Source: a virus (lineage: Duplodnaviria; Caudoviricetes). Taken from it: a DNA stretch of 35,703 nt. Each line of letters starts with the position of its first letter. The stretch's first letter is position 1. The stretch is from IMG/VR virus record IMGVR_UViG_3300009634_000230, positions 1 through 35,703 of that record; one strand, given 5' to 3'. Shown in pieces: positions 355 through 28,273 of the stretch. The translations under genes were made by a program, and so were the position numbers. The notes beneath the pieces are model-generated. The model was not told the origin of the DNA. It was given only the letters and a program-made list of their open reading frames with translations, and made no database searches.

Positions 355-399
355 TTAAGGAGGGTTGCTGAGTTAAAATGCCTTTTTTGAGGTGACAAA

Positions 400-1116: not shown

Positions 1117-1129
1117 TTGGCCGATAGCG

Positions 1130-3526: not shown

Positions 3527-3534
3527 TATCCTCT

Positions 3535-5055: not shown

Positions 5056-5096
5056 TTGTCTTTCCTATCCGCTACCTGTTGTTCCTGAACGTTGTT

Positions 5097-6035
5097 TTAC
5101 GTTCCCGATGCTCGGAGAACCACAAAGGCATCAGAATCGACGTTATTTGTCAGGGTGATGATGGCCGGGTCATATTTCAGTGTTCCGCCGGCATCAAGTT
5201 TAGTTGTCGTTATTATCCTGACCGCGGTTGATTTTGTCAGGTCCAAGGTCCCGGCGGTCTTTATAGCAACCGTGGCGATTGTTCCTGTTGTATTGCTTGT
5301 CACTGTCCCGCCCTCGATGGTCAATGTCGTTACGGTACCGGTGCCGTCTATCAGCAGCGTGCCGGCCTTTGTTGTGATGGTTGTCGCAGCGCAAAGCAGC
5401 GTATTTTCACCGCCTGTCTGGTTCAATGTCGTCAATGTCGCGCCCGGCCCGATTGTCAGTTCCACATCGCTCGATGGTTGTGTCGTATAGCTGGAATTTA
5501 TAACACTGAAGGTCGCCGACTCTCCCGTCCCGAAGGCGATGCCGACCTTTCCTTTGCGTATTTCGAGCGTATTGCCGGCGTTTGTCCCCAGCAGCATTAC
5601 TGTCGGCGTATTTGTGTTCGCCGGCGGCCCGCTGTTGTAGATGGTGATGGCCGTCTGTACCGTTCCGAGGTTGAGTTTGATTCTCCCGCTTCCGGTTGGT
5701 ATCCCCGGCCCGTTGTAATAACCTATCTTCACGGCCGTCGCTCCTATCGAAAGATAGTTGACATCATCTCCTATCTGGCCTATATAGCTCTGTGATATAT
5801 TCAGTGATGCGAGGGTCTTTGATGATTGCGCAAGGCCGCCTGTCACGTTTACCGACGAATTCTCGAAATAGACATTATTGCCGTCCCTCGGCACTTCGCC
5901 TGTTGACCAGTTGGCTGCTACCGCCCAGTTGCTGTCCGTTGTTCCTGTCCAGAGGATGGTATTGGCTGCGCTGGAGAGTTCTGCCAGTAAACTGATGATT
6001 AACAAACCAACAATCAAAATCTTTTTTGTTTTCAT
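5097..6035 (-). CDS. Signal-peptide beta-helix/passenger-like protein in the tail module
   Basis: MKTKKILIVGLLIISLLAELSSA signal; WTGTTDSNWAVAANWSTGEVP motif; T/G-rich beta repeats. Confidence 0.65.
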   Translation of the reverse strand: MKTKKILIVGLLIISLLAELSSAANTILWTGTTDSNWAVAANWSTGEVPRDGNNVYFENSSVNVTGGLAQSSKTLASLNISQSYIGQIGDDVNYLSIGATAVKIGYYNGPGIPTGSGRIKLNLGTVQTAITIYNSGPPANTNTPTVMLLGTNAGNTLEIRKGKVGIAFGTGESATFSVINSSYTTQPSSDVELTIGPGATLTTLNQTGGENTLLCAATTITTKAGTLLIDGTGTVTTLTIEGGTVTSNTTGTIATVAIKTAGTLDLTKSTAVRIITTTKLDAGGTLKYDPAIITLTNNVDSDAFVVLRASGT

Positions 6036-6082
6036 AATTTAGTTCCTTATCCTGAATTTTTTCCTCTATATTTATTTACTCA

Positions 6083-7039: not shown

Positions 7040-7042
7040 AAT

Positions 7043-8464: not shown

Positions 8465-8477
8465 ATCTACCTCATAT

Positions 8478-8562
8478 CAAAAAGCAGATATAAAAAAGTA
8501 AAAATGTTATGCGGCTTTGCCGCCTCCGAATTTTTACTATTTACTTTTTACTATTTGCTTTG
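8478..8562. repeat. Inverted heptamer arrays around a GCGGC-ttt-GCCGC hairpin
   Basis: (aaaagca/aaaagta)n, then gcggctttgccgc, then (tttacta/tttactt)n. Same layout at 20956-21052. Confidence 0.75.
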
Positions 8563-8901
8563 TTTATAGAAAGTTCTTAGCTTTCCAACGAACCTCGCGC
8601 CATCGAGGAACCCTTTTGCCTGGTCTAATTGTCCGCCCGCGACGGGTGCCAGTCCGTGTTCGAGGTACATCGTTGCCACCTCAATAAATTCCCACGTCCC
8701 GGGCGGTATGATTGTCAGGGGGCATTTGTTTATATAGATTTTTCCCGTTTTTTTGCATTCTTTGCATCCCGCCGCGCCGCATTCCGGGCACTCGAAGAAA
8801 AGCGGCGTCGATTTTGTCGGCTTGTCCCTGCATTTATCATTTCCCGGGCAGTTTTTGCAGCCGGCCCCGAACGACAGGCCGACCGCGATTGTCAGTTTTT
8901 T
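8551..8901 (-). CDS. Tail assembly chaperone GT extension (-1 frameshift product; not in ORF track)
   Basis: The -1 frame after A AAA AAC is open for about 115 codons: LTIAVGLSFGAGCKNCPG...CPECGAAGCKEC...APVAGGQLDQAKGF...KQSK-stop. Confidence 0.8.
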   Translation of the reverse strand, partial: KKLTIAVGLSFGAGCKNCPGNDKCRDKPTKSTPLFFECPECGAAGCKECKKTGKIYINKCPLTIIPPGTWEFIEVATMYLEHGLAPVAGGQLDQAKGFLDGARFVGKLRTFYKQSK

Positions 8902-9263
8902 CGTTCTTCCGCCGTGAATCCCTGGTATTCATAATGGGCAAGCAGCTGGCCCAGCTCATATGATGTGCAGATATCTTCGAGCTTCTCGATATCAAACGGG
9001 ATTTCCGTCTTCTGTCCTTCGGCTTCGGTCTTCCAGATGTTTTCCCAGCCAACGACGGCGGTTTTGAGGATGTCTAAAATCCCGTCGATGGATCGGATAT
9101 CCGGCCCGACGTTTCTGGCCTTGTCGATTGCCTCGATGATTTTTCGCATCTCGCGTGCCGAATGTGTTCTCAGCTCGAAGTGTCTCTGTTTTTCCGCCGG
9201 CTTATTTTTGTCGGCCTTGAGTGTTACCCAGAATGTTGTCCCCGGTTCCGTTGGTATCGGCAT
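8892..9263 (-). CDS. Tail assembly chaperone (gpG-like)
   Basis: Between tail tube and tape measure; VVGWENI motif; ends EERKN. Start placed at MPIPTEPG (RBS GAGG). Confidence 0.85.
   Translation of the reverse strand: MPIPTEPGTTFWVTLKADKNKPAEKQRHFELRTHSAREMRKIIEAIDKARNVGPDIRSIDGILDILKTAVVGWENIWKTEAEGQKTEIPFDIEKLEDICTSYELGQLLAHYEYQGFTAEERKN
8895..8901 (-). promoter_or_regulatory. Programmed -1 frameshift slippery site A AAA AAC
   Basis: CGA AAA AAC TGA at the end of the chaperone, in XXXYYYZ register. Confidence 0.8.
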
Positions 9264-9358
9264 AATTCGTTCCTCGTTTCTCGTCGTTCGTTTTTCCGAA
9301 GCGGCCACAAGCCGCTTTCCAAATTACGATATACGATATATTAAATACGATATACTAA

Positions 9359-10261
9359 TTACGTTACCGCGATACTTACTGCATCGTTTCCGCTGCTGTG
9401 ATGGCATTCGCCCGTCCAGTCGAGAATCTTGAGTCCTTCCCGTTCGCCATCTTTCAGTTCCTTGCACTGGACCTTCGGCAACGTGAAGGTTATTATGTCA
9501 ACGCCGTCCGTTGCAGCTATTGCGATGGCCGCCTCCGTCCCCGCCTTTTTGATGCCGTGGAAATCATAAGTGGCTACGAGGGTCTCGGTCGGGTCGAGCG
9601 TGATAATGGGCCCATCGTAGTTGCTCATGATATAATAAATGCCGGACAGGTTGGTTACGACTATGCCCATATCGAGAGTGGCCTTGCTGATGTTCAGCAG
9701 GTTTGTTGCGACCGTCAGCATTCCCGAACCAAAGAGGATAGGTTCTCTTGTCGAAGGCGACCACGTCGGTATCGCCTCATCGATTGGCGCAATCCAGTAT
9801 CCGAAGAACTCGCATTCGAGCTCAATCGGCTTGCCGTGGACAAAGTTGAATTTGGTTTTGCCGTAGCATCCCTGCAGCATCTTCTTTTTGCCGTTCTCCC
9901 AGACGGCGATTGATATTGTGCTCTGGGCGGCTATGCTGGAGGACATCGAATAGACCTCAGTCGCCTTTACGAAGCCGCCCGCCTCCATCAGGACAGCGCA
10001 GAACGGGTCCAGATGATGCGAGCCATCCCCTTTCAGTTCCGTCTTGAAGGAGCATCTCCCGAGCGGTTCGCCTTCCCTGCCCTGGAACTCGATGCCCATA
10101 TACAGGCCTGACCCGACTCGTTTGATATATTCGGCGGTCGATTCGCACTTGAGGTCATATACATGACCCGCCAGGGTTGGCGCAAGATATGTCCCTTTCG
10201 TCGTTTCGGCTATCACCTTCATTACATGCAGTGCCCTGACCAACGGATTTACCGGTGCCAT
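9359..10261 (-). CDS. Major tail tube protein
   Basis: AETTKGTY N-terminal motif; synteny between tail terminator and chaperone; ITFTLPKVQ motif. Confidence 0.8.
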   Translation of the reverse strand: MAPVNPLVRALHVMKVIAETTKGTYLAPTLAGHVYDLKCESTAEYIKRVGSGLYMGIEFQGREGEPLGRCSFKTELKGDGSHHLDPFCAVLMEAGGFVKATEVYSMSSSIAAQSTISIAVWENGKKKMLQGCYGKTKFNFVHGKPIELECEFFGYWIAPIDEAIPTWSPSTREPILFGSGMLTVATNLLNISKATLDMGIVVTNLSGIYYIMSNYDGPIITLDPTETLVATYDFHGIKKAGTEAAIAIAATDGVDIITFTLPKVQCKELKDGEREGLKILDWTGECHHSSGNDAVSIAVT

Positions 10262-10320
10262 CTTATGTCCCTTTCAATTTTTAGCCGTTATTCTTGTTTC
10301 TTAATTCTCAATTCTAACTT

Positions 10321-10836
10321 CTAAATTCGTACATACTGATCTTTCAGCTGTGTCACGTACTGCACAGTGAATTCGATATCCAGCGTATGGAATCCCTTGC
10401 CCGCGGTGATTGACATATCGAACGGATTATCGTCAAGTCGGATTCTTGCGAGCTGTGCATTGGTTTCATCGAGAATGATGCTGTCGTTTTCCATCAGTTT
10501 ATTGATAATGTCTGCGCCGATTCGGTTCATTGCGGTATCGGGCGAATCATCCGACTTGTCCGACAGGGACACAAAGCACGTGCAGAACACCCGCTGGTCT
10601 CGCGTGCTCGTATTTCCCGCTGCGTTTTCCGAGGCCTTATTCGCTGCCTGTCCGACGAGGACCTGTCCCGTCTGGTACGGGCATCCGCCGGCCAGATACC
10701 AGCTCACCATATTATTGATATCCACCTGTTTGATTCTGCCTGCATGGAGCGTATAATTGCCGCTCGATGTTGCGGTGATGGCATTGATGGCCGTCACGAT
10801 TGCATTTATTACATTTTCAATTACCGGATTATTCAT
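10321..10836 (-). CDS. Tail terminator (gpU-like)
   Basis: Synteny; N-terminal helix VIENVINAIVTAI; C-terminal IEFTVQYVT...DQY. Confidence 0.65.
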   Translation of the reverse strand: MNNPVIENVINAIVTAINAITATSSGNYTLHAGRIKQVDINNMVSWYLAGGCPYQTGQVLVGQAANKASENAAGNTSTRDQRVFCTCFVSLSDKSDDSPDTAMNRIGADIINKLMENDSIILDETNAQLARIRLDDNPFDMSITAGKGFHTLDIEFTVQYVTQLKDQYVRI

Positions 10837-10848
10837 ATTATTTTTTTA

Positions 10849-11499
10849 TTATGCTCCCAATTCGCTTTTAATATTTCCGCCGAATATAAGGTTTTCCGTC
10901 GCGATATCGAGCATCCTTTCGAGCATCCCGCCTGCCGATTGTTTGACACCTTCGAACATTCCCGGCGCCTGTTCGAGTATTGCCCCTGGTGATGGCCCGA
11001 ATATTTCCTGAATAGACAGCCGTCCGACCATCGAGCTTTCAGTCAGCTCTGCCGGCACTCCGCCGCCGAATTCGCCGCCGAGCGCCTTTTGGCCTCGCCA
11101 GCCGGCTGAATATCGCCTGAAAATGCCCGTATGACCGCCTGGCATCGTCGCCTCGAACGCTGAGGGTATGAATCCCAATCCCCCTGCCTCGAATGTAGCG
11201 CCAAGGGGTCCCCGGTGTGCCCTGAAGGCGATTAGCGGGATTCTCTTGCCGAGTACGCTTATCATTCCGGAGATTTTCGACCATCTGGCGTTGATTGCCC
11301 GGGTGAGGTATTTGCGTGCAACTCCGACCGCTGCTATCTCGCGTTCGATTATTTCCTTTTTGGTCTCTGTTACGGTCTTTCTGATGGCCTGATGCAGCGC
11401 CTCTTCTATGCCGCCGGGCATTTCTTTCAGGAGCAGGGAAATCTTATTCATCTGCGCCTTGTCGATCTTAATTTCTATGCCTACTCTTGGTTCGCTCAT
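10849..11499 (-). CDS. Minor tail protein Z-like (tail completion)
   Basis: RIPLIAF, AFEATMPGGHTGIFRR and RLSIQEIFGPS motifs typical of the gpZ family. Confidence 0.75.
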   Translation of the reverse strand: MSEPRVGIEIKIDKAQMNKISLLLKEMPGGIEEALHQAIRKTVTETKKEIIEREIAAVGVARKYLTRAINARWSKISGMISVLGKRIPLIAFRAHRGPLGATFEAGGLGFIPSAFEATMPGGHTGIFRRYSAGWRGQKALGGEFGGGVPAELTESSMVGRLSIQEIFGPSPGAILEQAPGMFEGVKQSAGGMLERMLDIATENLIFGGNIKSELGA

Positions 11500-11502
11500 A
11501 TA

Positions 11503-11562
11503 TTCAGCGTACAGGAGCAGCGGACAGCGTACAGAATCCTGAACGCTGAACGCTGAACGCTG
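11503..11562. repeat. Inverted heptamer arrays (cagcgta / ctgaacg)
   Basis: cagcgtacag...cagcgtacag faces (ctgaacg)3 and can form an imperfect hairpin in the intergenic gap. Confidence 0.75.
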
Positions 11563-12387
11563 TCATCTGATCTCCAGCGTCATCATTCCCTTGTCGATTG
11601 AAATTATATTTGTTATTCTTCGCATTGTCGGTGTTTCTCCGGGCCGCAGCGCCAGTTTCACCTTGTCTTGTCCGACATCGAGCGTATCGCCTGCGGGGTA
11701 ATATGTAATCGTTTCCGCCCCGAGTCCATCCAGAAATGCCTGTGCCTGCGATATAATCATGTCATCGAATATCGATTCCGAGACGATATTCGTTCCCGAC
11801 AGGATTCCTTCGGTGGCGTCATTTTTGACCGTGATGACAGTCCTTTCCGCCATACTGTGCGGGATGTTATCGAGAGGGCTGATTTCGCCACGTTCGACAA
11901 TCGCCTTTATGCTGCGATATGCTACTGCCGAGGCAGTTAATGTGTGGTTTGCGATGATGGTTGAAATTGTATATGTATTGACTCCCTGCAGGATTGCGGT
12001 TCCATCGAGGGTCCACAGTGTCTCGTAGCCGGCCTCCGGCGTTGCCAAAAATATCTGGCCCTCGCCTGTTGCGACAAGTACTGTTCCGGTCGGTGTTATG
12101 GTAACGTGATTGCCAGCGGTTACGGTCACGGTGAAGGCATCGTATGTAACTACCGGATGTCCCGTCAAATCGCCGTATATATCATATTCCCCTGTTATAT
12201 CACCATATGAATACCAGCATGCGGGTTCTGTAACTCCGTGCAGCGAGCTGATTTTCCACATTCCCGCCTCTGAATCAAACCATATCTCGTAAGTGCCATC
12301 CGCTCGGCGGTAATACGGCTCACCGTTATATGTCCCTGAGGGCGGATATGTGCCGGCTGCAAGTGTTCCTGTGACTTTTATATTCAT
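11563..12387 (-). CDS. Head-closure/head-tail joining protein with N-terminal accessory domains
   Basis: C-terminal RSIKAIVER...DKVKLA...DKGMMTLEIR upstream of gpZ. Central Ig/InlB-B-repeat-like domain FTVTVTAGNHVTITP...NHTLTAS. Confidence 0.65.
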   Translation of the reverse strand: MNIKVTGTLAAGTYPPSGTYNGEPYYRRADGTYEIWFDSEAGMWKISSLHGVTEPACWYSYGDITGEYDIYGDLTGHPVVTYDAFTVTVTAGNHVTITPTGTVLVATGEGQIFLATPEAGYETLWTLDGTAILQGVNTYTISTIIANHTLTASAVAYRSIKAIVERGEISPLDNIPHSMAERTVITVKNDATEGILSGTNIVSESIFDDMIISQAQAFLDGLGAETITYYPAGDTLDVGQDKVKLALRPGETPTMRRITNIISIDKGMMTLEIR

Positions 12388-13035
12388 TTATTTCACCAAA
12401 ACGAGTTTAGAACAGATGAGAAAATCAGAACTTGAATTCGAGTCGTTCAGACCTTGAATGGCGAGCAGATTATGGCCCACAGTCAGCTGATTGACATAGG
12501 TCGAGATGTCATAGGTATTCCACGCGGAGGTTGTCTCAGCTGATGCCTGCGTAGCCAATGAGTTCCACACCGGTGTAGTTGGCTTATTGATATATTTTAC
12601 CAGAGTGCCGTTGATGTAAGCTGCAAATCCATCATCATATCGCATCAGAAGGGAGAGTCCGGTTACGGCATCGAGAGAGGTTATTTCAAAGGGTATTCTG
12701 ATATAACAGGTGCCGTTTATGTTGTGCATAGTTGTAAGAACATCGTTGCCAATCCATTGGTAATAGGCATCACAGGGGTCTGTGCAATAGCCGACTCCGC
12801 CGTATCCGGCCGTCCAGGCGCTGTCATTGTAGTCGTAATTAGTCCTCCAGTCGGTCCCGATATCCCCTGTCGGGACAAGTATTTTCTTATATTTCATTTC
12901 CGTAACTACGATGTTTGGGTCGTTGGTATCGCTTACAGTGGTTGCCTTACCCCAAAAGCAGGAAAGCGGATATGATGATGTTGTCCCCGCCAGAACCAGA
13001 ACAAAAAACAAAGACATGAGCAGTTTCTTCATCAT
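12388..13035 (-). CDS. Signal-peptide protein with galactose-binding-like jelly-roll domain
   Basis: MMKKLLMSLFFVLVLAGTTSS signal; YIRIPF...LLMRYDDGFAAYINGT...GHNLLAIQGLN...SSDFL motif. Confidence 0.7.
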   Translation of the reverse strand: MMKKLLMSLFFVLVLAGTTSSYPLSCFWGKATTVSDTNDPNIVVTEMKYKKILVPTGDIGTDWRTNYDYNDSAWTAGYGGVGYCTDPCDAYYQWIGNDVLTTMHNINGTCYIRIPFEITSLDAVTGLSLLMRYDDGFAAYINGTLVKYINKPTTPVWNSLATQASAETTSAWNTYDISTYVNQLTVGHNLLAIQGLNDSNSSSDFLICSKLVLVK

Positions 13036-13116
13036 AGTATCCCGCACCAGTTCGGGCCTTTGGGTTTGTCCGGCCATAACCATTTTGTCAGTATCAAAAT
13101 TAGTCGCTTCATTACT

Positions 13117-15057
13117 TCACCACCCCACCAGAATTACAGAACTGTTTTGTTTCGGCGGTTGCCAAGCACCTGGTGTTGACTTGCCGCCATCGAGAGTGGG
13201 CACGGCATTTATACAAGGCGAACTCGGCAGCAAACTAAAATCATTAGTGTCTTTATTTCTGAATCGCGGGTCGGCTGAAATACTATTGACATCATTCAGG
13301 GGGAAATTAACTACGCCGTGATTTGCCCACGTCAGCCAATCCGCTTTCATAGTGGCTAAATCTGGAATTACTGTCGCTGTATTTGCCGTGAGTTCTATGT
13401 CTGCAAAACCAGAAGTGCCATTAACGTAGCAGTTGAAGTTGATATAGTTATCGCTTACTCCATAAACACCATACGAATCAGCATCCGTTCCAATGGCATA
13501 CGTAGCGCCAGCCCCATCAAAGATGTTGTTGTATATCTGGTTGTGGCTCTGATAAACAACTCCAAATCCTACATCATTCTGGCTGGACAGTCCGAAAGCA
13601 TAACTACCCGTCGAATGACAGGTGTTATTGAATACGTTGCAGTTTGATGCACCTTTCAGAAGTAAACTGCAAGGGCCATTCGCTATGTTATGGTGAACAT
13701 TTATCTTTTGTCCCTTAATAACAATCTGATAGTTGCCTCCCATAACCGTATCGTATGCGACTTCGCCCGACTGGACATTGTTGCCGACAATAACCGCGTG
13801 CTTGGCTTGTGCGCCTGATAGAGTAACTACATTATGTCTGATAACCGCATTGCCAATAGGGTCAGTAATCCCGCCGTCCAGGCCTATTTGTATGCCATAC
13901 GAACCCGCCGTTCCCATCGCAAGCGTGATTGTGTTATCAGCTACAAAGATATTGCTCCCTGTATTTTTCGTGCCGCTTACGCTAATAGCAGCGCCAGCCG
14001 AACCAAATGTCGAAGTGAATGTATTGCCGGTAATAATCACATTGTTTAAATCTGGGGCAGCACCAGCGGAATAATTAGCATTTATGGTTGGGTTTGTAGA
14101 ATTGGGATGAAATATATTGTTAGTGATTCTAACATTTTTAAGAACACTGGTATGGTCAAGCTGAATCAATGATATTGTACCAGCGGAAGATTCGGTAAAG
14201 GCGTTGCCATTAACGGTGAGTGAATTGACATTATAATCGGAAATAGCCATATTAACAGTGGAAAACGTCGGGTTGTTAGAGATATTTACATCCGGCAAAG
14301 GCGTTCCCGATGGATTAAGAAAAATAGTCGGTTTTGCCGAGGTATCTGTGATGCTATTGCCGGTAATAGTTATCGGCCCATTAACACCTGAAATCCAAAT
14401 TGCCCCAGCCGACGTGCCTGCCCCCGTGATAGTTGCGGTATTCCCTGTAAAAATAAGGCCATTCAATCCGACCATTTCTATGAGATAACCCGATACAGGG
14501 AGAGTTGAATTGGTAATGCTTAAAGACCTTGTTGGTGTAGCGTTACTGCCTCCGTGAAAAAAGCCTGAAGATGGAGCGCCATCAGAAGGATTGCCTAAAA
14601 TACAGTTATTAACAACACCGTTTACATCGCCACTGCCGAAATCTATCAAATCCCCAGGCGAAGGTTTGATATTCCTCAAGGTTAGATTTGTAAGTGTAAT
14701 CGTCCCCTTACTCCCGCTATCCCAATACATACAGTCGGACGCATTGAAATCCAGCACTACAAGAGTGGGGTCTGTATTTGCTTGGCCGTTATTCCAACCG
14801 TTAATCGTAAGAGCTTTCGACGTTGACCAGTAAAACTCCTTCGAAGTTGTTTCGGTATAAGTGCCTGGCTCAACCCGTATCTCGGCGGGAAATGTAACAG
14901 CACCAAGCGCGTGACCCACTGTTTTCCAGGCGTTAGTACCTTCGGTTGCACCAGTATTGGAATCGCTGCCATCTGCTTGGATGTAATAATAGTTGGTCGC
15001 CAACGCCTGCCCACAGACAAATAGAATCAACAGGATTGTAATTAGTTTATATCGCAT
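13117..15057 (-). CDS. Signal-peptide right-handed parallel beta-helix (pectin-lyase-like) protein
   Basis: Start at MRYKLITILLILFVCGQALA (RBS AGGAG); YYIQADGSDSNTG..AWKT; many ITGNT repeats; ADPRF..DFSLLPSSPCINA cap. Confidence 0.8.
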   Translation of the reverse strand: MRYKLITILLILFVCGQALATNYYYIQADGSDSNTGATEGTNAWKTVGHALGAVTFPAEIRVEPGTYTETTSKEFYWSTSKALTINGWNNGQANTDPTLVVLDFNASDCMYWDSGSKGTITLTNLTLRNIKPSPGDLIDFGSGDVNGVVNNCILGNPSDGAPSSGFFHGGSNATPTRSLSITNSTLPVSGYLIEMVGLNGLIFTGNTATITGAGTSAGAIWISGVNGPITITGNSITDTSAKPTIFLNPSGTPLPDVNISNNPTFSTVNMAISDYNVNSLTVNGNAFTESSAGTISLIQLDHTSVLKNVRITNNIFHPNSTNPTINANYSAGAAPDLNNVIITGNTFTSTFGSAGAAISVSGTKNTGSNIFVADNTITLAMGTAGSYGIQIGLDGGITDPIGNAVIRHNVVTLSGAQAKHAVIVGNNVQSGEVAYDTVMGGNYQIVIKGQKINVHHNIANGPCSLLLKGASNCNVFNNTCHSTGSYAFGLSSQNDVGFGVVYQSHNQIYNNIFDGAGATYAIGTDADSYGVYGVSDNYINFNCYVNGTSGFADIELTANTATVIPDLATMKADWLTWANHGVVNFPLNDVNSISADPRFRNKDTNDFSLLPSSPCINAVPTLDGGKSTPGAWQPPKQNSSVILVGW

Positions 15058-16342
15058 TGGCATCTGCTCCTGCATAATAAACGAATATCTTTTTGGGGGT
15101 TACAAACTGAACATCACAACTGCCAAAATTCGCACCAGTTCTCACTGCCGTTGCAATCGTTGTGCCGTTCACAACATCGATTACGGTACTATTGGGGTCA
15201 AAGTGAACAATAAAACCAAAGGCATCGTTGGTATCGCGTAGGGAGAAAAGCTGACCGATTCTCGCCGTATTGGTATCGTAAATGCCTATGTTAATATCTT
15301 TTGTTATGCCTGTGCAGGTAAACGTCCAGCGATTATTGCTGTCAACAAAATTAGTATCGGAAGTTATATTCAGCCAACGAACAGCGTTGACATCGCTCGC
15401 TGTCGCAAATCTGCTATTAGCATCAGTCCTGTCCACGACACGCAAGCCGTTGACATCGTTCGCCAAAGCACCGCCAGCAGCAGCTATCGCAGCACTATTT
15501 CCTGCTACCGCGCCTCCTGCGCCATCGCCCTTCAAAATAGAGGAGGTCATAGCAACTGGGCTATTGCTCAGAGAAATCACCGGATGACCTGTTGCTGTCC
15601 CTGCGGGCGAATAACTCCCGTTCGGGTCAGAGTTGGTTCTTGTCCAATACGCAGAGCCGGTCGTTGCTGGCCCAGTACTTATGCAATATCCCGGCAGGGA
15701 TGGGGCGCTCCATAACCAAAACAAAGAATCTGCCGTTCGATAAGTCGGCAAGCTGTTATAAGTGCCATTCTGATAGAGTTTTCCTGTTATATTAGGAGAA
15801 AGGGTATCTGTCGATGTTATGATGTTATAACTCACAAACCTGTTTGGGTCTGCGAACATGGCATTAACATCGTTCGGAGCAGAAGGAAGATAGCCAAGTG
15901 CAGCAGTTATATCAGCAGAAGTTGAAGGGGCAACATTACCATCACCATTAAAATGGGCAAGACCGATTATTGTTCCATTCGAGCCGTTGGGGTCAATGTG
16001 GAGGGCAATCGTATTGCTTTCGCCAGTCCTCGTATAATATGCAGGATAGTTTATATCGGATGCTATAAACTGGTGAGTCCCGCCTGAGCCATCCAAAGTA
16101 AATACGCTTGCCGTTGTTGGCCCGTTGACAAGTCCGCCTGCCGTATATTCCGGCATATAACCGGCCGAAAGTCCCGTAAGTCCGCCGCCTGTTATCTGGT
16201 TTTGCAGCCAGGCGTAAAAGGCCGGATTAGAGCAGGGGTCGCCCTGCATCATAGGCCATAATGGCGGCAGTTTTGCCGCCTGCGCCAATGAGCATAATAT
16301 CATCAGGATTATTATTGCAGCCGTTATAATTCTCTTAATCAT
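15047..16342 (-). CDS. Signal-peptide fibre-like protein, D-x-N rich
   Basis: MIKRIITAAIIILMILCSLAQA signal; ITAALGYLP and ILKGDGAGG motifs recalled from phage fibre shafts. Confidence 0.65.
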   Translation of the reverse strand: MIKRIITAAIIILMILCSLAQAAKLPPLWPMMQGDPCSNPAFYAWLQNQITGGGLTGLSAGYMPEYTAGGLVNGPTTASVFTLDGSGGTHQFIASDINYPAYYTRTGESNTIALHIDPNGSNGTIIGLAHFNGDGNVAPSTSADITAALGYLPSAPNDVNAMFADPNRFVSYNIITSTDTLSPNITGKLYQNGTYNSLPTYRTADSLFWLWSAPSLPGYCISTGPATTGSAYWTRTNSDPNGSYSPAGTATGHPVISLSNSPVAMTSSILKGDGAGGAVAGNSAAIAAAGGALANDVNGLRVVDRTDANSRFATASDVNAVRWLNITSDTNFVDSNNRWTFTCTGITKDINIGIYDTNTARIGQLFSLRDTNDAFGFIVHFDPNSTVIDVVNGTTIATAVRTGANFGSCDVQFVTPKKIFVYYAGADANAI

Positions 16343-16352
16343 ATTTACCTCA

Positions 16353-16447
16353 TTGAATTTAGAGTTTAGAATTTAGAATTTAGAAAATGATTCGGATTCA
16401 GTTCTTAATTCTAACTTCTCACTTCTCAATTCTTTAATTCTCACTTC
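16353..16447. repeat. Inverted heptamer arrays (gaattta / ttctcaa)
   Basis: (gaattta)4-like array faces (ttctaac/ttctcac/ttctcaa)n and fills the intergenic gap. Confidence 0.8.
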
Positions 16448-16450
16448 GTT

Positions 16451-17167
16451 TTATCCGCCGCTTGCGCCGGACAAAATGATGTAGATATGGTCTATGACCG
16501 TCCAGTTTGCATTATTGATAAAGATTCCGAAATATTCATAACCCGCGACCGGGAACACTAATTGCAGAATATCACCATAGGTTTCTGTGCCTGAATACCC
16601 GCCTTTATAGACGCCTAACGGCCACTGGTAACTGAGGGTCATTTCATCAGCCCATTTATAGTTCGGGTCCGCTACGGGCGCTGCGGCGGTTCCCCGCAGC
16701 GCAGCTCCCGAGTACGGGTTATTGCTGAGCTGGACGTTTCCGATTCCGACGGGTCCGGAAAATACCTTTTTGACGCCTCCGTATTTGCGGATGGCGAAGG
16801 CGTTGACGTCGAATGCCCCGGCGTTGGCATCGTTTGCCTTGTTGATTGCGTGCGCGAATATGGATACCTCGGCGAGCGCCCACTGGTTGGGCATCGCGAG
16901 CCATCTTCCGGTTCCTGTAACGGTCCCATCAGCCGTTCTGGTGTTGGCGATGACGTCTGCCCAGGTCTTTGTCCCGAAGGTCGGCTGCGTATCATTGGCG
17001 GTGATATCGATGATATAGAGGTAACCGAATTTGGCGTCCCCTATATAGGTGAGCTGGTTATAGGTGGTGAGCGCCTTATCATCCGCCATTGCCGATGCGA
17101 CCCAGAGGATGGCCAGCGCTGCAATAACGCCGGCGATGATGATTGTGATTTTGTTTATTCGTCTCAT
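16451..17167 (-). CDS. Signal-peptide hypothetical protein
   Basis: MRRINKITIIIAGVIAALAILWVASAMA signal with AxA cleavage site; RBS AAGGAG. Confidence 0.65.
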   Translation of the reverse strand: MRRINKITIIIAGVIAALAILWVASAMADDKALTTYNQLTYIGDAKFGYLYIIDITANDTQPTFGTKTWADVIANTRTADGTVTGTGRWLAMPNQWALAEVSIFAHAINKANDANAGAFDVNAFAIRKYGGVKKVFSGPVGIGNVQLSNNPYSGAALRGTAAAPVADPNYKWADEMTLSYQWPLGVYKGGYSGTETYGDILQLVFPVAGYEYFGIFINNANWTVIDHIYIILSGASGG

Positions 17168-17241
17168 ATTTTCTCCTTAGCCGCAGAGGGCATAGAGTTC
17201 ATAGAAAACAAAAAACAGTGTTAATCTGTGTTAATCCGTGT

Positions 17242-17523
17242 CTAAATATTTCCATGTCCAATCAGATACGCAATTGCCGCCACGATGGTTATTTTGGCAA
17301 TGTCAACGCCGGCTGCGGCCAGGGCATCTTTCCAGCTTTTTTTCGTTTCTTTATGTTCCTCGAGATGTTCTTCGAGCTCCCGGCATGGTCTTGTCGGCGC
17401 TTCAGGCATCAGTTCGAGTTTGGTGGCGATAGTTGCAACATCGGTTGCCATTGAACCAACCGATTTGACGAGTTCATCTATTCGGTTATGTATCCTGTTG
17501 AGGTCATCTTTATCCGGCGGCAT
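17242..17523 (-). CDS. Small coiled-coil protein with C-terminal TM helix
   Basis: RIHNRIDELVKSV heptads; ITIVAAIAYLIG TM. Start placed at MPPDKDD. Confidence 0.55.
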   Translation of the reverse strand: MPPDKDDLNRIHNRIDELVKSVGSMATDVATIATKLELMPEAPTRPCRELEEHLEEHKETKKSWKDALAAAGVDIAKITIVAAIAYLIGHGNI

Positions 17524-17582
17524 ATCATTGCGGCCAATGGCCGTCTCCAAATATCAATTATCAATCGCAATTCCGCAATTTC

Positions 17583-17631
17583 GTATCGGCATTGGGCCGG
17601 GCGGCGATATTTATCCCGGCCCTGCCGATAC
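17583..17631. terminator. Strong GC-rich stem-loop downstream of the head genes
   Basis: gtatcggca(tt)gggccggg pairs with cccggccctgccgatac (17 bp). No U-tract on the minus strand, so it may be an mRNA stabiliser or attenuator. Confidence 0.5.
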
Positions 17632-17688
17632 AGCGCAAACGTCTTTACTTTTTCAACTCATCGTCCCTTGTAGGGAAAGCGTTGCCTG

Positions 17689-18414
17689 CTACGCCCAGAT
17701 TCCGCGCATTTTCTGGATTTCCCAGCCGTTGCCCGCGATATCCGGGTGAATGATAATGTAATCCCAGTGTTTCGCCGTTGCCTTGGTATTGGTTCTGGTT
17801 GCATTGTCCACCCCGGCGATATCCGGCCCCATTATTTTGTCCGACGCATTTGGCTGAACGGTAATGAGCACCGCCGCATCCGCTCCGCCGTTGATAATCG
17901 CGATGGGTCCCAGCCCCGCCGCCGTCGCCGGCAGCGTGATTGTCTTGGCATCGACGGTCATGATAAATGCCTTGCCAACGTCCTGTATATCGAGCGTCTT
18001 GTTATCGATGAGCGTCTCGAAGGTAAAGCCCTCGAATACAGGGCTGTTCGGCATAAACTCATTGAGCTCGACGTATGCGACGGCATCCGTCGCCGCCATA
18101 GCCACCGTCAGCGAGCCAACGAGGAAGTCAGCCGCAGTTAGGTTCGTTGTCAATGCTCCCGTTCCGGCCGTCCCGCCGTAAGGGTCCCCATTCTCGTCCC
18201 AGCCAACCGGATCTCCTGTGCTTCCGGCAATCTGGGCCTTAACGATTTTTGCGATCCCTTCGACCAGTATCGCACCCTTCACATTCGCCTCGATATCGGT
18301 CACGCACAAACCAGCTCTTCCGCCCGACTGGACCATTTGGCCCGCCAGGCACGCCGAGGTTGGCGTATAGTCAATCATGTCTCCCTGCTGATATGCCATT
18401 GCTTCCGTGTTCAT
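17689..18414 (-). CDS. DUF2190-family capsid cement/decoration protein with C-terminal extension
   Basis: YQQGDMIDYTP..AGQMV..G..DIEANVKGA..EGI motif just after the capsid gene; extra TITLPATAAGL...GIWA domain. Confidence 0.8.
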   Translation of the reverse strand: MNTEAMAYQQGDMIDYTPTSACLAGQMVQSGGRAGLCVTDIEANVKGAILVEGIAKIVKAQIAGSTGDPVGWDENGDPYGGTAGTGALTTNLTAADFLVGSLTVAMAATDAVAYVELNEFMPNSPVFEGFTFETLIDNKTLDIQDVGKAFIMTVDAKTITLPATAAGLGPIAIINGGADAAVLITVQPNASDKIMGPDIAGVDNATRTNTKATAKHWDYIIIHPDIAGNGWEIQKMRGIWA

Positions 18415-18425
18415 AATTCGTTCCT

Positions 18426-18468
18426 TCCCGCCCTCGATGGTTGCCCCAGAGGCCTTCTATCGGGGGTC
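18426..18468. repeat. 43-bp dispersed direct repeat, copy 2
   Basis: 39/43 identity with 935-977; abuts the DUF2190 RBS. Confidence 0.85.
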
Positions 18469-18506
18469 AAATCTTAAATTTTAAATTCTTTGTTCAGCCA
18501 CAGAGT

Positions 18507-18731
18507 TTATGTCCGCGTAATCCGCCTACTGCGGAGAAGTTCGTGGCTACTTTTCACTGGTTCCGGTTCCGCTGATACAGGCGTCGCCAGCAGCTTATGG
18601 CAGTTAAAGCATTTCATCTCCCCCGGCTCATTTACTTTGCCGTGCCTTTCAGCATAGTGAAGTTTGTCGCCTTTTCGGACAAACTCCGTCTCTTGCCCGC
18701 ATTCACATTTCAAAATCAGGTTCTGTTCCAT
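18507..18731 (-). CDS. Small Zn-ribbon-like protein
   Basis: CECG...CFNC; start MEQNL after AGGA RBS. Confidence 0.55.
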   Translation of the reverse strand: MEQNLILKCECGQETEFVRKGDKLHYAERHGKVNEPGEMKCFNCHKLLATPVSAEPEPVKSSHELLRSRRITRT

Positions 18732-18790
18732 TTTTTGTTTCCTTTTTTTTAAAAATCTCAATACGAAACTGACAATCCACAATCGTTTAG

Positions 18791-20938
18791 TTACTGGTTG
18801 TTCTTCTGCATCCCGCGGAAGTCCAGCGCCTTGACGCCCACATCCAGATAAACGCGGTATGTCACGCCTAAAACATCGGCCGGCGAAGGAAGTTGCTCGA
18901 CTGTCGGCTGTTCGACGCCGTTGAGGAATCCGACCTCGATCGTATCGACTTCGCCGCCCCTGCCCGTAACGTACCAGGAAGTGGCCGAATACCCGCTAAA
19001 TGCGGAGTTCGACAATCTCGGCTCAGCGACAACCTGAAGATTATCATCCATCAGGGCGTTATAGTTGCCCCTGATGCTTTCAGTCGAAGGTGTCCCTGCG
19101 ATGACGATGGTTGTGCTGCGGGCAAGATTCATTGCCGTATATTTCAATTCAGGCGGAACAAGGATGACACGAGGCATGATTGTAATCTGGCGACCGGCCT
19201 TGTCTTTTTGCTTGATGAAGGCAGCGCATGCCGCCTGCAGAGTTGCCATCGTCAGTGCCGCACTGGTATTGAGGTTGAGGTGCGTTGTGGCGTAGAACAG
19301 CACTATTCCATCACTCATGGCGCCGTTGGCGAGCAGGTGCGTATATACGAGGTCCGAGGGCAGTTCTGCCGCCGCCCTGCCGAGCCGTTCGGGCGTCCGC
19401 GTGAATGCGCCGAGGTCATCGTTGATTATCTGCTGGCGGGTAATGCTGAACTTCTTGGCATAGGTGTCCAGTCGGTACTGTTCGTACTCTTCCTCTGCCC
19501 CGCTTTCTTTTATTTCTCCGCCGGCACCGACCTTCTCAAGCGAGCCGGTATCCGTCAGCCGGACGCGGGTCGAGAGTTTGAAGTCGGGCAATGTTCCGAT
19601 GGAGCACCAGTTCCGCCACGTGGCCGGCACAAAATTGTAGCCGCGCATAGCGCTTTTATTGGCGATTGCGCCGAGAATGAACGGCAGGGAGGCCGTCGAA
19701 AACGCCATACGGATTGTGTCTTCCCTGCCCAGCGGCACATCCCCGCCGTCGAGATTGATGGCGTACCGGCACATATCCAAGAGATTCATGTCCCTGTGCC
19801 TGCTTGCGACTTCTGCGCGTCGCTCGCCGTTTGTCTTGTCTTTCAGGATGGTATCCTCGAATCCAGCCCTGATGAGCATGGCGTCGATGATTATGTCCCT
19901 GCTGTCAACACCCTGTGAAATCACCAACCCTGGCCCTTTGACCTTTGGTCTGGCCTTGCGGATGTGTTCCAGGACAATCGTCCTGAACGCATCGACCGTC
20001 GTATCGCCATCGAGCGCCCTTTGAAGGACATCTGCCGGGACATCCTGACCGGCAAGCTCCCTGATGGTTGAGCACCTTAGCCGTTCGGCTGCAATCGCCT
20101 GCTGAGGGTCAATTGCCACGGTGGTCGCTGAAGATGTCCGCTGATTGTTATCAGCCTCAGCGGTCTTGGCCGGCTTCTTTGCCGGGTCGGACCGGGCGGT
20201 TTTGTCATCTGTTTCTGTGCCGTCGTCCGCCATCTTTTCGGCACGGGCCGTTTCGGCATCATAATCCTTTTGCAGCGATGCCCTCTGCTGCTCGCTCAGT
20301 TTGTCATAATCCAGACCTCTTGCAGCGAGCCACTGTTTGAACTTTTCCATTTGTGTATCCTTTCCCGCGTATTTACGCGACTTCGCCGCCGGGTCCGCCC
20401 CGATCGGACAAACACTATTTTCCTTCAGTTCCCATTCCAGTGAAATTCGTAAATCAATATCTGCGGATGCCTTATAATGAACGCCTTCGATGTCCGCCTC
20501 TTCGCCGGCGTTGATTATTACCGAACGTGTCACCTTGTATCCAATTGATTGGTCCCTCTGATGCTTTTCCTTCGCCAGCAACCAGGCATGTTCTGATAGC
20601 GGTGATGTACTATAATAATCACGGCCTATGATTTCCTCACCCACAATGTGCGCACCGCGAGCACTTCCTAACTGGCTCGAAACAGTTGACCGGTCGTGAG
20701 TATCCAGCAGAGGAACCTGATCGTGCAATATTCCACCTTTCAATACGAGTATTTCTTCAATTACGCTCCATGTTGCCATATCAAAGACACGTACCCGTGC
20801 AGATGTCGCGAAAACCGCCTCAATGGAGCGTGTCTTTTCGTCGAGGGTATCTAATCGCAGTGAATATATCCTGCATGTAAGTCCTGTATTATCCACAGCG
20901 TCCCTGTGAGTTAATCTGTTAATCAAATCCTTTTTCAT
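18791..20938 (-). CDS. Fused prohead protease-scaffold-major capsid protein
   Basis: N-terminal HK97-type protease (VPLLDTHDR, SIGY, ENSVCPIGADPAA); scaffold (AAERLRCSTI); Mu gpT-like capsid (ITRQQIINDDLGAF, DTIEVGFLNG, DFRGM). Confidence 0.92.
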   Translation of the reverse strand: MKKDLINRLTHRDAVDNTGLTCRIYSLRLDTLDEKTRSIEAVFATSARVRVFDMATWSVIEEILVLKGGILHDQVPLLDTHDRSTVSSQLGSARGAHIVGEEIIGRDYYSTSPLSEHAWLLAKEKHQRDQSIGYKVTRSVIINAGEEADIEGVHYKASADIDLRISLEWELKENSVCPIGADPAAKSRKYAGKDTQMEKFKQWLAARGLDYDKLSEQQRASLQKDYDAETARAEKMADDGTETDDKTARSDPAKKPAKTAEADNNQRTSSATTVAIDPQQAIAAERLRCSTIRELAGQDVPADVLQRALDGDTTVDAFRTIVLEHIRKARPKVKGPGLVISQGVDSRDIIIDAMLIRAGFEDTILKDKTNGERRAEVASRHRDMNLLDMCRYAINLDGGDVPLGREDTIRMAFSTASLPFILGAIANKSAMRGYNFVPATWRNWCSIGTLPDFKLSTRVRLTDTGSLEKVGAGGEIKESGAEEEYEQYRLDTYAKKFSITRQQIINDDLGAFTRTPERLGRAAAELPSDLVYTHLLANGAMSDGIVLFYATTHLNLNTSAALTMATLQAACAAFIKQKDKAGRQITIMPRVILVPPELKYTAMNLARSTTIVIAGTPSTESIRGNYNALMDDNLQVVAEPRLSNSAFSGYSATSWYVTGRGGEVDTIEVGFLNGVEQPTVEQLPSPADVLGVTYRVYLDVGVKALDFRGMQKNNQ

Positions 20939-20955
20939 TTCGCAACTCCATTACT

Positions 20956-21052
20956 CAAAGCAAAAAGCAGATAGCAAATAGTAAATATATTGATGCGGCC
21001 TTTGGCCGCTTCTTTATTTCTTTTTGCTTTTTACTTTTTTATTTTTACTATT
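20956..21052. repeat. Inverted heptamer arrays around a GCGGCC-ttt-GGCCGC hairpin
   Basis: Same design as 8478-8562. One arm encodes the portal C-terminus SKNKKVKSKKK. Confidence 0.75.
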
Positions 21053-26933: not shown

Positions 26934-27055
26934 ATTCGACTCCGTTCAGCTTTTTACCATTTGCTTTTTGCTTTTTACTTTTCTTCGCACCCCATGGGGC
27001 GGGTTTTCTCATCCATAAGTCCGCCCGCCCCGTTTTCAGCCGGCTCCGCCGGTTA

Positions 27056-27535
27056 TCAGATCCAGCCGTTCTTTTTCGCCAGCGCATAACCTGCCAGGAG
27101 CAGGGAGATTATGCCTGTCCCGGTCATCGCCTTCGGCCATTCGCTTATCAACTGTTTGGTTTGTCCGGTCATTGTGTAGGTATTAAAGTACGCCTGCGCA
27201 ATCTGATTAGCGAACGCGGCTGAATTGGCATCGACCAGCCCTCCCGACTGCGCCATAGTGATTATCTGCTGGAACGCCGCCATCTTGTTCGGGTCTTTCG
27301 ACAGCTCGAGCAGTCCCGACTGCAGGCCGGATATCTGTTCCTGGGTCAGTGTGACCTGCTGATTAAGCTGTTGGATTGTCTGATTGGCATCTACAATCGC
27401 CTGATTGTACCCGACGAGGAGGCCTCCCACTCCGCTGGCGCCTGTTGTCAGGGCGGATGTTGTGCATCCGGCCATCGCCAGCATCATCGCCGCCAGCAGC
27501 ACTACAATAAGAATCTTTGTCCTGTGCATCTTCAT
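27056..27535 (-). CDS. Lipoprotein with C-terminal TM helix (u-spanin-like topology)
   Basis: Lipobox MAGC after a hydrophobic signal; Q-rich coiled coil; GIISLLLAGYALA TM. Confidence 0.6.
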   Translation of the reverse strand: MKMHRTKILIVVLLAAMMLAMAGCTTSALTTGASGVGGLLVGYNQAIVDANQTIQQLNQQVTLTQEQISGLQSGLLELSKDPNKMAAFQQIITMAQSGGLVDANSAAFANQIAQAYFNTYTMTGQTKQLISEWPKAMTGTGIISLLLAGYALAKKNGWI

Positions 27536-27544
27536 TTCCTTTCA

Positions 27545-27787
27545 TTAAAGGTTGATATGGAAGAGCGTCAAAACCGTTTTGACGTAATTACTGATAACGT
27601 CGAAAATTTTGTCATCTTCCTGCGAGGGTGTGAGCTTAACAATCGCATGGATCAGGCCGTAAGCAGGAGGAATAATGGTTACGAATAAAACCCAGTGCAT
27701 ATAAAGCCAGCCGCCGGTGATCCCGAAGAGGCCAAGCGTATTCGGGTCCGCGATGTTCATGTCTGCGATTCCAAGTATGATGTTCAT
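27545..27787 (-). CDS. Holin-like membrane protein
   Basis: 79 aa hydrophobic protein; AIVKLTPSQEDDKI motif recalled from small phage holin-like proteins. Confidence 0.6.
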   Translation of the reverse strand: MNIILGIADMNIADPNTLGLFGITGGWLYMHWVLFVTIIPPAYGLIHAIVKLTPSQEDDKIFDVISNYVKTVLTLFHINL

Positions 27788-28184: not shown

Positions 28185-28273
28185 ATTTTGCTCTTTTGGT
28201 GAGTCAACTGATTCAACACCTTATCTTTTGCGGTTACAAACCGCGTTCAATTTGCCGAAGCGGGCCCATCTTT
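28141..28273. repeat. 133-bp inverted repeat, native copy
   Basis: Reverse complement of 33658-33790 with 1 mismatch. Confidence 0.95.

What the first reader, a model, noticed from the sequence alone, without database searches (positions are those of the whole stretch)
12388..17523. Block of four Sec-exported proteins plus a membrane protein embedded in the head-tail operon
Seen: four consecutive co-oriented genes between DUF2190 and head closure all begin with signal peptides. Two overlap and the last abuts the head-closure start, so they look co-translated with virion genes rather than independent morons. Folds are fibre-like, beta-helix and sugar-binding, as in neck appendages. Inference: an undescribed morphogenesis route in which appendages are exported, modified in the periplasm and attached at release. 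The alternative is late-expressed envelope remodelling proteins.
Basis: partly seen in the sequence, partly recalled or inferred. Interest (0 to 1): 0.8.

Follow-up and report, generated by a model that had tools for sequence, protein, structure and literature searches.

The report
Exported decorations for a tailed phage
In a dormant virus of an uncultured peat bacterium, four genes between the head and neck genes begin with export-type leaders and carry a tag enriched in the host's exported proteins, so they likely encode surface parts that are made outside the cytoplasm and would join the virus particle only when the cell bursts, a route I did not find described for tailed phages.

Summary
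Observation largely confirmed. The window is a lambda-like prophage integrated in a Sedimentisphaerales genome. Four genes in the variable slot between cement and head-closure genes have Sec-type leaders (heuristic, no SignalP) and 31 D-x-N motifs against 7.5 expected, an excess also seen in the host's leader-bearing proteins. The 238-aa protein is a self-associating XepA/YomS-like jelly roll whose signal-less homologues sit in head-tail modules of other prophages. A fifth gene, in the tail module, has leader-bearing and leaderless orthologues at one position (5 of 15), and podovirus nozzles in bins of this order carry leaders (5 of 15). Best reading (0.6): exported virion accessories that attach at lysis. 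Against: no virion or expression data; 4 of 7 leader-bearing jelly-roll homologues lie outside virion operons; the 231-aa gene is a host-derived domain; D-x-N excess is absent from the slot genes of nine relatives; no PglB found. The membrane protein is not special to the block. This scan noted the same idea before on other DNA; my literature searches found no description.

The parts
17689..18414 (-). Cement/head-decoration protein (DUF2190 type) with a C-terminal extra domain; upstream border, no leader
   Evidence: PF09956 E 2e-8, phrog_122 E 3e-6
17582..17632 (-). Strong GC-rich hairpin after the cement gene, no U-tract; likely mRNA stabiliser or attenuator (inferred)
   Evidence: spacer 17551-17688 folds at -49.3 kcal/mol, z -3.6, 0 of 200 shuffles as stable; not called a terminator
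17242..17523 (-). 93-aa coiled-coil protein with a C-terminal hydrophobic anchor; generic occupant of this slot, holin-like role possible but untested
   Evidence: no Pfam, PHROG, NCBIfam or PADLOC match; small one-helix ORFs at this slot in relatives with and without leader-bearing genes
17210..17246 (.). Host-type interspersed repeat in the spacer
   Evidence: about 10 matches across G001 contigs
16451..17167 (-). 238-aa leader-bearing jelly-roll protein (leader about aa 1-28); predicted ring-forming capsid decoration or spike base
   Evidence: AlphaFold pLDDT 87, helix 6-27; XepA/YomS and phage capsid chains top the fold search at Z 6-7; self-association supported; leader conserved in character, not sequence
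15047..16342 (-). 431-aa leader-bearing fibre-like protein, 16 D-x-N motifs; aa 192-267 shared with the N-terminal extension of the head-closure protein
   Evidence: 34% over 76 aa, pairwise E 1e-8; Atlas neighbours mostly tailed-phage clusters, scores under 0.9; no other homologue in 5.8 billion proteins at near length
13117..15057 (-). About 646-aa leader-bearing right-handed beta-helix, Pel9A-like; architecture of bacterial secreted proteins
   Evidence: Atlas model pTM 0.84, feature hits 0.94-0.96 to Beta_helix/Pel9A-like/DUF1565 clusters, all bacterial where recorded
12388..13035 (-). About 215-aa leader-bearing single domain taken from a host secreted protein; cleavage site less canonical
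   Evidence: 60% identity over 171 aa to an internal domain of a 1534-aa leader-bearing host protein, G001:C3:93270-97874; 69% DNA identity
11563..12387 (-). Head-closure protein with a 155-aa N-terminal surface extension; downstream border, no leader
   Evidence: aa 156-274 match 113-140-aa proteins at this position in 7 relatives
5097..6035 (-).
   Evidence: 15 full-length orthologues, 5 with and 10 without leader; all-beta model pLDDT 87; no significant fold match
27056..27535 (-). Lipoprotein with a C-terminal hydrophobic segment (spanin-like topology, inferred); internal control for the motif
   Evidence: 3 D-x-N against 0.1 expected; sequence
27545..27787 (-). 80-aa membrane protein, holin candidate (inferred)
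   Evidence: sequence; no family match

Best explanation
The four genes lie in the variable accessory slot of the phage's late operon and begin with Sec-type leaders; they likely encode virion surface parts that are exported to the periplasm, are probably modified there, and would dock on finished particles when the inner membrane fails at lysis. Shown: gene position, leaders by sequence, D-x-N excess, jelly-roll and beta-helix folds by prediction, and homologues with and without leaders at matching slots. Inferred: export and cleavage; that D-x-N marks a periplasmic modification (N-glycosylation at a non-canonical sequon is the likeliest kind); that the 238-aa protein rings a capsomer as a decoration or spike base; that the 431-aa protein is a fibre; that the beta-helix and the host-derived domain are exchangeable binding heads; and that docking happens between holin action and outer-membrane rupture. 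Odds of being on the virion differ: about 0.7 for the 238-aa, 0.65 for the 431-aa, 0.5 for the 652-aa and 0.45 for the 231-aa protein.
For: (1) Leaders are confined to accessory slots: 10 of 19 related phages with a complete slot (this one included) have at least one leader-bearing slot gene, 15 of 53 slot genes of 120 aa or more, against 1 of 349 distinct core virion ORFs. (2) The leader is a detachable add-on: the tail gene 5097-6035 has 5 leader-bearing and 10 leaderless full-length orthologues, all right after the distal-tail-like gene; nearest leaderless one 55% identical; the trait needs 5 changes on the best tree, at least 3 forced by well-supported branches; leaderless copies have at most 16 open codons upstream. 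Slot families show the same pairs, e.g. L037 against L088 and G076 at 57-58% identity. (3) 14 of 21 jelly-roll homologues fetched from the order are leaderless, 13 of these among phage head, tail or packaging genes (neighbours confirmed by PHROG or marker match for L217, L219, L230; the rest judged by eye). (4) Fold neighbours: XepA Z 7.2 (rmsd 3.0, 100 aligned), YomS 7.1, a Vibrio phage VP1 capsid chain 7.0, a phage 7-7-1 capsid chain 6.2; self-association score 0.71 against best control 0.00, runs agreeing in at least 76% of contacts, pLDDT at least 80; the mark was reached by 20 of 30 solved pairs and 1 of 23 single chains, calibrated for two copies only, and may reflect likeness to solved rings. 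The HFTV1 turret base on capsid hexamers is XepA-like (PMC12494034, passages). (5) A slot gene of relative L004 has a leader plus LamG plus the S74 fibre chaperone and PHROG tail-fibre matches. (6) Unmistakable virion parts carry leaders in this order's bins: phrog_376 nozzle (PDB 8ck1, E 2.5e-82) in 5 of 15 loci examined plus 3 of 3 viral relatives, and tailspikes, while portal, capsid, adaptor and ejection proteins do not. (7) D-x-N: 31 in the four against shuffle mean 7.5, maximum 20 in 5000; 20 against 20.7 in the 24 leaderless ORFs (sums); host leader-bearing proteins 167/82, cytoplasmic 163/148; G197 47/21 against 80/77. (8) Precedent: Cellulophaga phage phi18:3 gp085-087, annotated as structural by MS/MS, have leaders; 8 other MS/MS structural proteins checked do not. 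(9) No ribosome-binding site at an internal start that would skip the leader.
Against: No virion, proteome or expression data exist for this phage. Of 7 leader-bearing jelly-roll homologues only 3 lie in virion operons; 2 are orphans among chromosomal genes (L212, L213), 1 sits in a small tRNA-adjacent element without capsid genes (L218) and 1 on the strand opposite the structural genes of a Mu-like phage (L229). XepA itself is reported as exported and absent from mature particles (PMC6834076, passages). All fold Z-scores are under 8 and Foldseek gave no PDB match at E 0.001. The 652-aa and 231-aa proteins look like bacterial secreted proteins, have low GC3 (0.42, 0.52; 431-aa 0.44; core 0.61-0.68) and no recognised virion anchor. 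None of the four matches PHROGs or Pfam. Leader-bearing slot genes of the nine other phages show no D-x-N excess (38 against 34.8), nor do 3 of 8 leader-bearing nozzles; G018 shows only 93/69. No STT3/PglB was found in G001. Host assignment of the podovirus contigs rests on binning.
Confidence: 0.6

Rival explanations
1. The block encodes exported envelope proteins that never join the particle: late lysis helpers like XepA, receptor decoys or masks against superinfection, or lysogenic-conversion cargo parked in a recombination hot spot.
For: 4 of 7 leader-bearing jelly-roll homologues lie outside virion operons; XepA is exported but not in mature particles (PMC6834076); 231-aa gene is a recent host acquisition; 652-aa protein resembles bacterial secreted beta-helices; lower GC3; host repeats and 74-108 nt spacers inside the block; a strong hairpin separates it from the cement gene; promoter-like sites are in excess over 9000-21000 (26 against 15.6).
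Against: Does not explain leaderless orthologues at the same slots, leaders on nozzles, tailspikes and an S74-chaperone fibre, a domain shared with the head-closure protein, or the stop codon abutting the head-closure start; no minus-strand terminator call between cement gene and block; no PADLOC match.
Confidence: 0.25
2. The proteins are virion parts, but the hydrophobic N-termini act as uncleaved membrane tethers or are bypassed, so that assembly stays on the cytoplasmic side.
For: Would keep conventional cytoplasmic assembly; the 231-aa cleavage site is not canonical; cleavage was not predicted with a trained tool.
Against: Basic n-region and small-residue c-region conserved in position (invariant Ala28 before Asp-Asp in 4 of 4 close homologues); D-x-N excess follows the leader (jelly roll 11/4.6 with leader, 5/8.2 without; nozzle L242 nested among leader-bearing ones has no leader and 1/2.3); no internal ribosome-binding site.
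Confidence: 0.08
3. The slot is a neutral or decaying collection of captured secretome fragments with no consistent function.
For: Slot content differs in every relative; the 431-aa protein has no detectable homologue at near length.
Against: All four frames are intact; the 238-aa family is conserved with leader and D-x-N motifs across 36 full-length 50%-identity representatives and has core-like GC3 0.64.
Confidence: 0.07

Closest known systems
Bacillus prophage XepA (PDB 6i56) and YomS (6i5o); HFTV1 turret base gp30; capsid chains of Vibrio phage VP1 (9in6_c) and Agrobacterium phage 7-7-1 (9hz8_G)
   Same: Jelly-roll core of about 100 aligned residues, Z 6-7; predicted head-to-tail self-association; phage context. 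HFTV1's XepA-like base carries a head with deacetylase and galactose-binding domains (PMC12494034, passages); in L211 a leader-bearing gene with a weak deacetylase match (E 0.007) precedes the jelly-roll gene.
   Different: Twice as long through insertions, 9-11% identity, classical leader and D-x-N motifs; encoded in the head-neck slot, not a lytic cassette; ring size and binding site not determined.
Cellulophaga phage phi18:3 gp085-087 (GenBank KC821620)
   Same: Three consecutive leader-bearing genes of a tailed phage, annotated as structural from MS/MS; gp087 matches PHROG tail families.
   Different: Different host phylum, phage type and protein families; I saw only the record's annotation, not the proteomics data, so co-purification is not excluded.
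Podovirus tail nozzle (phrog_376; PDB 8ck1) and tailspikes
   Same: Same leader-on-outer-parts pattern in bins of the same host order.
   Different: Those are essential DNA-sealing parts; the four window proteins are variable accessories, and this phage's core neck and tail-tube proteins have no leader.
Prophage morons and lysogenic-conversion envelope proteins such as lambda Lom and Bor (recalled, not from a call)
   Same: Exported, variable among relatives, lower GC, inserted among late genes.
   Different: Four in a row with overlap and abutment to the head-closure gene; families with leaderless members in structural modules; no own promoter-terminator unit demonstrated.
Campylobacter PglB N-glycosylation, sequon D/E-x-N-x-S/T (recalled)
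   Same: Asp two residues before Asn, enriched only in leader-bearing proteins.
   Different: No S/T preference at +2, no E-x-N excess; no STT3 match in G001. Glycosylation itself is unproven.

Membership tests
Sec/signal peptidase I substrates | Basic n-region, hydrophobic h-region, small-residue c-region | tested here: met
   Own heuristic; false-positive rate 1 of 349 core ORFs; c-region weak for the 231-aa protein
Sec/signal peptidase I substrates | Actual export and cleavage | not testable with these tools
   No SignalP, no experiment; indirect support from D-x-N
XepA/YomS-like jelly rolls (238-aa protein) | Same beta-sandwich fold | tested here: inconclusive
   Top two hits of 48161 chains but Z 7.2 and 7.1, under 8
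XepA/YomS-like jelly rolls (238-aa protein) | Pentameric ring | tested here: inconclusive
   Self-association supported with four copies; five or six copies not run
XepA/YomS-like jelly rolls (238-aa protein) | Gene in the lytic cassette | tested here: not met
   Gene lies between cement and head closure; lysis candidates lie about 10 kb away
Capsid decoration or spike base | Encoded in the head module, with relatives in structural modules | tested here: met
Capsid decoration or spike base | Bound to capsomers in purified virions | not testable with these tools
   No cultured phage, no structure
Tail fibres and tailspikes (431-aa, 652-aa) | Beta-helix or fibre body | tested here: inconclusive
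   Beta-helix supported for 652-aa; 431-aa Atlas model pTM 0.27, viral neighbours only leads
Tail fibres and tailspikes (431-aa, 652-aa) | Known virion anchor or S74 chaperone; trimer | tested here: inconclusive
   No Pfam, PHROG or NCBIfam match; trimer not modelled
Morons | Variable presence and atypical composition | tested here: met
   (three of four genes have low GC3)
Morons | Own promoter and terminator, expressed in the lysogen | tested here: inconclusive
   Consensus scan only; no RNA holder listed
PglB-type N-glycosylation substrates | D/E-x-N-x-S/T sequon | tested here: not met
   4 full sequons among 31 D-x-N in the four proteins; host N-x-S/T ratio 1.18, E-x-N 0.99
PglB-type N-glycosylation substrates | STT3/PglB enzyme in the host | tested here: inconclusive
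   PF02516 0 of 2, 6 weak of 61 that are 500-610-aa ArnT/PMT-like proteins, PF21436 0 of 5; genomes may be incomplete; 19 PMT_2 matches in G001 not examined

The most novel reading that the evidence does not exclude
Tailed phages of Sedimentisphaerales build their particles in two compartments: heads and core tails in the cytoplasm, and outer parts (decorations, fibres, and in podoviruses even the DNA-sealing nozzle) in the periplasm, where a host enzyme glycosylates them at a non-canonical D-x-N sequon; the halves meet only at lysis, and a gene switches compartment simply by gaining or losing a 20-residue leader.
Probability: 0.4. Interest if true: 0.9.

Novelty: categorically new. Interest (0 to 1): 0.72.

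Why it matters
Tailed-phage particles are held to be finished in the cytoplasm before lysis (established knowledge). Outer parts made across the inner membrane would add an assembly step at lysis, give virions access to periplasmic glycosylation and disulphide formation, and keep those parts away from cytoplasmic sensors until the end (inferred). It would also mean that annotation which files leader-bearing prophage genes as morons misreads some of them. The orthologue pairs that differ only by a leader, and the cultured phage phi18:3, make the idea directly testable. The parts themselves have known folds; the novelty class refers to the route, which remains inferred.

Tried and rejected
Pfam, PHROGs, NCBIfam and PADLOC gave nothing for the four proteins; PDB sequence search gave nothing significant for the 231-aa and 652-aa proteins. 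The 431-aa C-terminus does not align with the cement C-terminal domain (probability 0.2). The 312-aa model had no Foldseek PDB match at E 0.001 and no VIA search was obtained; it had no match in 50,697 annotated phage records. Canonical PglB not found; this absence is not proof. D-x-C was not enriched. No RNA holder listed. Contigs of four DNA runs showed the same phage at near identity with no joint skipping the block. The endolysin role of 26274-26933 was not confirmed. The small membrane protein was rejected as a dedicated export factor because relatives without leader-bearing slot genes have one too. Literature searches that found no description of exported virion parts in tailed phages or of this motif; the library lacks most subscription papers. 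PMC5723332 and bioRxiv 10.64898/2026.09.15.751708 (passages) were not relevant. No supplements were consulted; the proteomics behind KC821620 could bear on the precedent.
Full report
Context. The window is a lambda-like tailed phage read on the minus strand: terminase, portal, protease-capsid fusion, cement (DUF2190), then the block, head closure, neck-1, terminator, tail tube, tape measure and tail-tip genes. Bases 1-20000 are 100% identical to G001:C11:62642-82641; locus L021 from the same place bears the label Sedimentisphaerales bacterium and the 115-kb contig has host genes on both sides. It is therefore an integrated prophage of a Phycisphaerae host. Runs that hold it are peat and wetland DNA metagenomes; X3 covers 30 of 30 bins.

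The observation. The four genes and the 93-aa membrane ORF are at the stated place. Their N-termini have best 12-residue hydropathy 2.99-3.28, against at most 2.12 in 24 of the other 26 ORFs examined. The two exceptions are informative: a tail gene at 5097-6035 and a lipoprotein at 27056-27535. I had no SignalP; my heuristic flagged 1 of 349 distinct core virion ORFs in related phages. Ribosome-binding sites place the real starts of the two downstream genes at 15063/15057 and 13035/13032, and no internal start that would skip a leader has one. One junction overlaps, one stop abuts the head-closure start, and three junctions are gaps of 74-108 nt, two holding host-type repeats. A hairpin without U-tract follows the cement gene (z -3.6). 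The promoter scan is not decisive.

An independent sign of export. The four proteins hold 31 D-x-N motifs against a shuffle mean of 7.5 and a maximum of 20 in 5000 shuffles; the 24 leaderless ORFs hold 20 against 20.7 (sums). In 400 kb of the 2.9-Mb host genome, 50 leader-bearing proteins hold 167 against 82 and 175 cytoplasmic ones 163 against 148; in 200 kb of G197, 47/21 and 80/77; in 200 kb of G018 only 93/69 and 84/84. DPN and DAN lead; E-x-N and N-x-S/T are hardly raised, and only 4 of the 31 are full PglB-type sequons. A periplasmic modification, probably N-glycosylation, is my inference. No STT3/PglB was found; G001 has 19 PMT_2-type matches that I did not examine. Against generality: leader-bearing slot genes in nine other phages show 38 against 34.8, so the motif depends on lineage and cannot be the only reason for export.

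The four proteins. The 238-aa protein folds with pLDDT 87 as a jelly roll after an N-terminal helix. Among 48161 chains the best matches are XepA (Z 7.2, rmsd 3.0, 100 aligned), YomS (7.1), a Vibrio phage VP1 capsid chain (7.0) and a phage 7-7-1 capsid chain (6.2); all are under 8, so this is a lead (Foldseek found nothing at E 0.001). Four copies gave a head-to-tail interface with score 0.71 against best control 0.00, at least 76% contact agreement and pLDDT at least 80; the mark was reached by 20 of 30 solved pairs and 1 of 23 single chains, the calibration held two copies only, and likeness to solved rings may contribute. Of 41 representatives, 36 are full length; all 36 have a hydrophobic N-terminus, with D-x-N 116 against 26; the search profile included leader and motifs, which biases this set. 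In 401 genomes of the order, 20 had 28 matches; I fetched 21 of the 27 outside G001. Fourteen are leaderless, 13 of them among phage structural or packaging genes; 7 have leaders, of which 3 lie in virion operons and 4 do not. The 431-aa protein shares 76 residues (34%, pairwise E 1e-8) with the N-terminal extension of this phage's own head-closure protein and with a leader-bearing podovirus protein in L267; its Atlas neighbours are mostly tailed-phage clusters at lead level. The 652-aa protein is a Pel9A-like beta-helix whose feature neighbours are bacterial. The 231-aa protein is 60% identical to an internal domain of a secreted host protein. GC3 says the 238-aa gene is an old resident (0.64) and the other three newer (0.42-0.52).

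Relatives. In 19 related phages with a complete slot, 10 carry at least one leader-bearing gene; 15 of 53 slot genes are flagged, a lower bound. Slot families have leader-bearing and leaderless members. One slot gene (L004) combines a leader, LamG and the S74 fibre chaperone. The clearest case is the tail gene 5097-6035: of 20 ORFs listed, 15 full-length ones went into a tree; 5 have a leader and 10 do not, all directly behind the distal-tail-like gene, and the trait needs 5 changes, at least 3 forced. Beyond this phage type, phrog_376 matched 24 of 401 genomes; of the 15 loci whose match began at the profile start, 5 have leaders (4 by heuristic, L241 by eye), as do 3 of 3 viral relatives (start codon unclear in L267). 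The L211 protein matches PDB nozzle 8ck1 at E 2.5e-82 from residue 25; its tailspike also has a leader, while adaptor, capsid, portal and ejection proteins do not. Five of these 8 nozzles show D-x-N excess and 3 do not; L242, nested among leader-bearing ones, has lost both. These contigs are tied to the host order by binning only.

Mechanism. The most economical account is that this slot holds exchangeable surface accessories, as it does in leaderless form in sister phages, and that here they have been rerouted through Sec. They would fold, and probably be modified, in the periplasm; three of them have 5-8 cysteines. Heads and tails assemble in the cytoplasm as usual. When a holin opens the inner membrane, the compartments would mix inside the outer membrane until a spanin ruptures it, and the exported parts would dock; that decorations can bind finished capsids is recalled knowledge for lambda gpD and T4 Hoc/Soc. 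Lysis candidates (27545-27787, 27056-27535) are inferred from topology only. I give this 0.6, an exported non-virion role 0.25, membrane-tethered cytoplasmic assembly 0.08 and functionless cargo 0.07.

Known and new. XepA is reported as exported and absent from mature particles, with capsid-vertex binding proposed (PMC6834076, passages); the HFTV1 turret base is XepA-like and sits on capsomers (PMC12494034, passages). Cellulophaga phage phi18:3 gp085-087 are annotated structural by MS/MS and have leaders, while 8 other such proteins checked do not; I saw the record, not the data. Searches found no description of the route or the motif; other listed papers were seen as listings only. Earlier notes of this scan report the same idea on other DNA; they are unchecked AI notes, read after my own nozzle and motif results, and gave me the phi18:3 lead. 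The parts are members of known folds; the route would be new in kind. This window is a good but not the strongest instance, since its leader-bearing proteins are accessories.

Noticed in passing
window 5097-6035 (-): Fifth leader-bearing gene, in the tail module, with leaderless orthologues at the same position; beta-solenoid model.
   Followed up: yes
L211:6823-11891 (G087:C18); L237, L238, L241, L260, L266-L268: Podovirus nozzles and tailspikes with leaders; adaptor, capsid and portal without.
   Followed up: yes
L051-L070 (G001), L173-L182 (G197), L163-L172 (G018): Host-wide D-x-N (DPN, DAN) excess in leader-bearing proteins; DPC also raised in G001 (8 against 0.9); enzyme not identified.
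   Followed up: partly
L218 (G093:C21), L212, L213, L229: Leader-bearing jelly-roll genes outside virion operons: a small tRNA-adjacent element without capsid genes, two chromosomal orphans, and a cluster opposite the structural strand of a Mu-like phage; L218 and L229 share a similar 157-aa leader-bearing first gene.
   Followed up: partly
window 26274-27787 (-): Candidate lysis cassette upstream of the terminase: 80-aa membrane protein, lipoprotein with C-terminal hydrophobic segment, and a phrog_1128 protein of unconfirmed function.
   Followed up: partly
window 1130-3526 (-): 798-aa leaderless tail-end protein with RCC1 repeats (PF13540 E 2e-77), a likely receptor-binding propeller.
   Followed up: no
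window 8471-8556, 10286-10329, 11504-11562, 16352-16447, 17177-17250: Intergenic repeats shared with many places on the host chromosome; 11500-11562 folds into a stable hairpin (z -4.8).
   Followed up: partly
window 35017-35703 and L161:11009-11971: Integrase-family gene at the window's right end and a second integrase-like ORF (judged by eye) about 700 bases left of the window; the prophage runs beyond both window ends.
   Followed up: no
window 28271-28412: The only differences from L021 (111 positions in an ungapped comparison) fall in this stretch.
   Followed up: no
L220:9546-11028: Two leaderless jelly-roll paralogues one gene apart, next to a leader-bearing gene.
   Followed up: no
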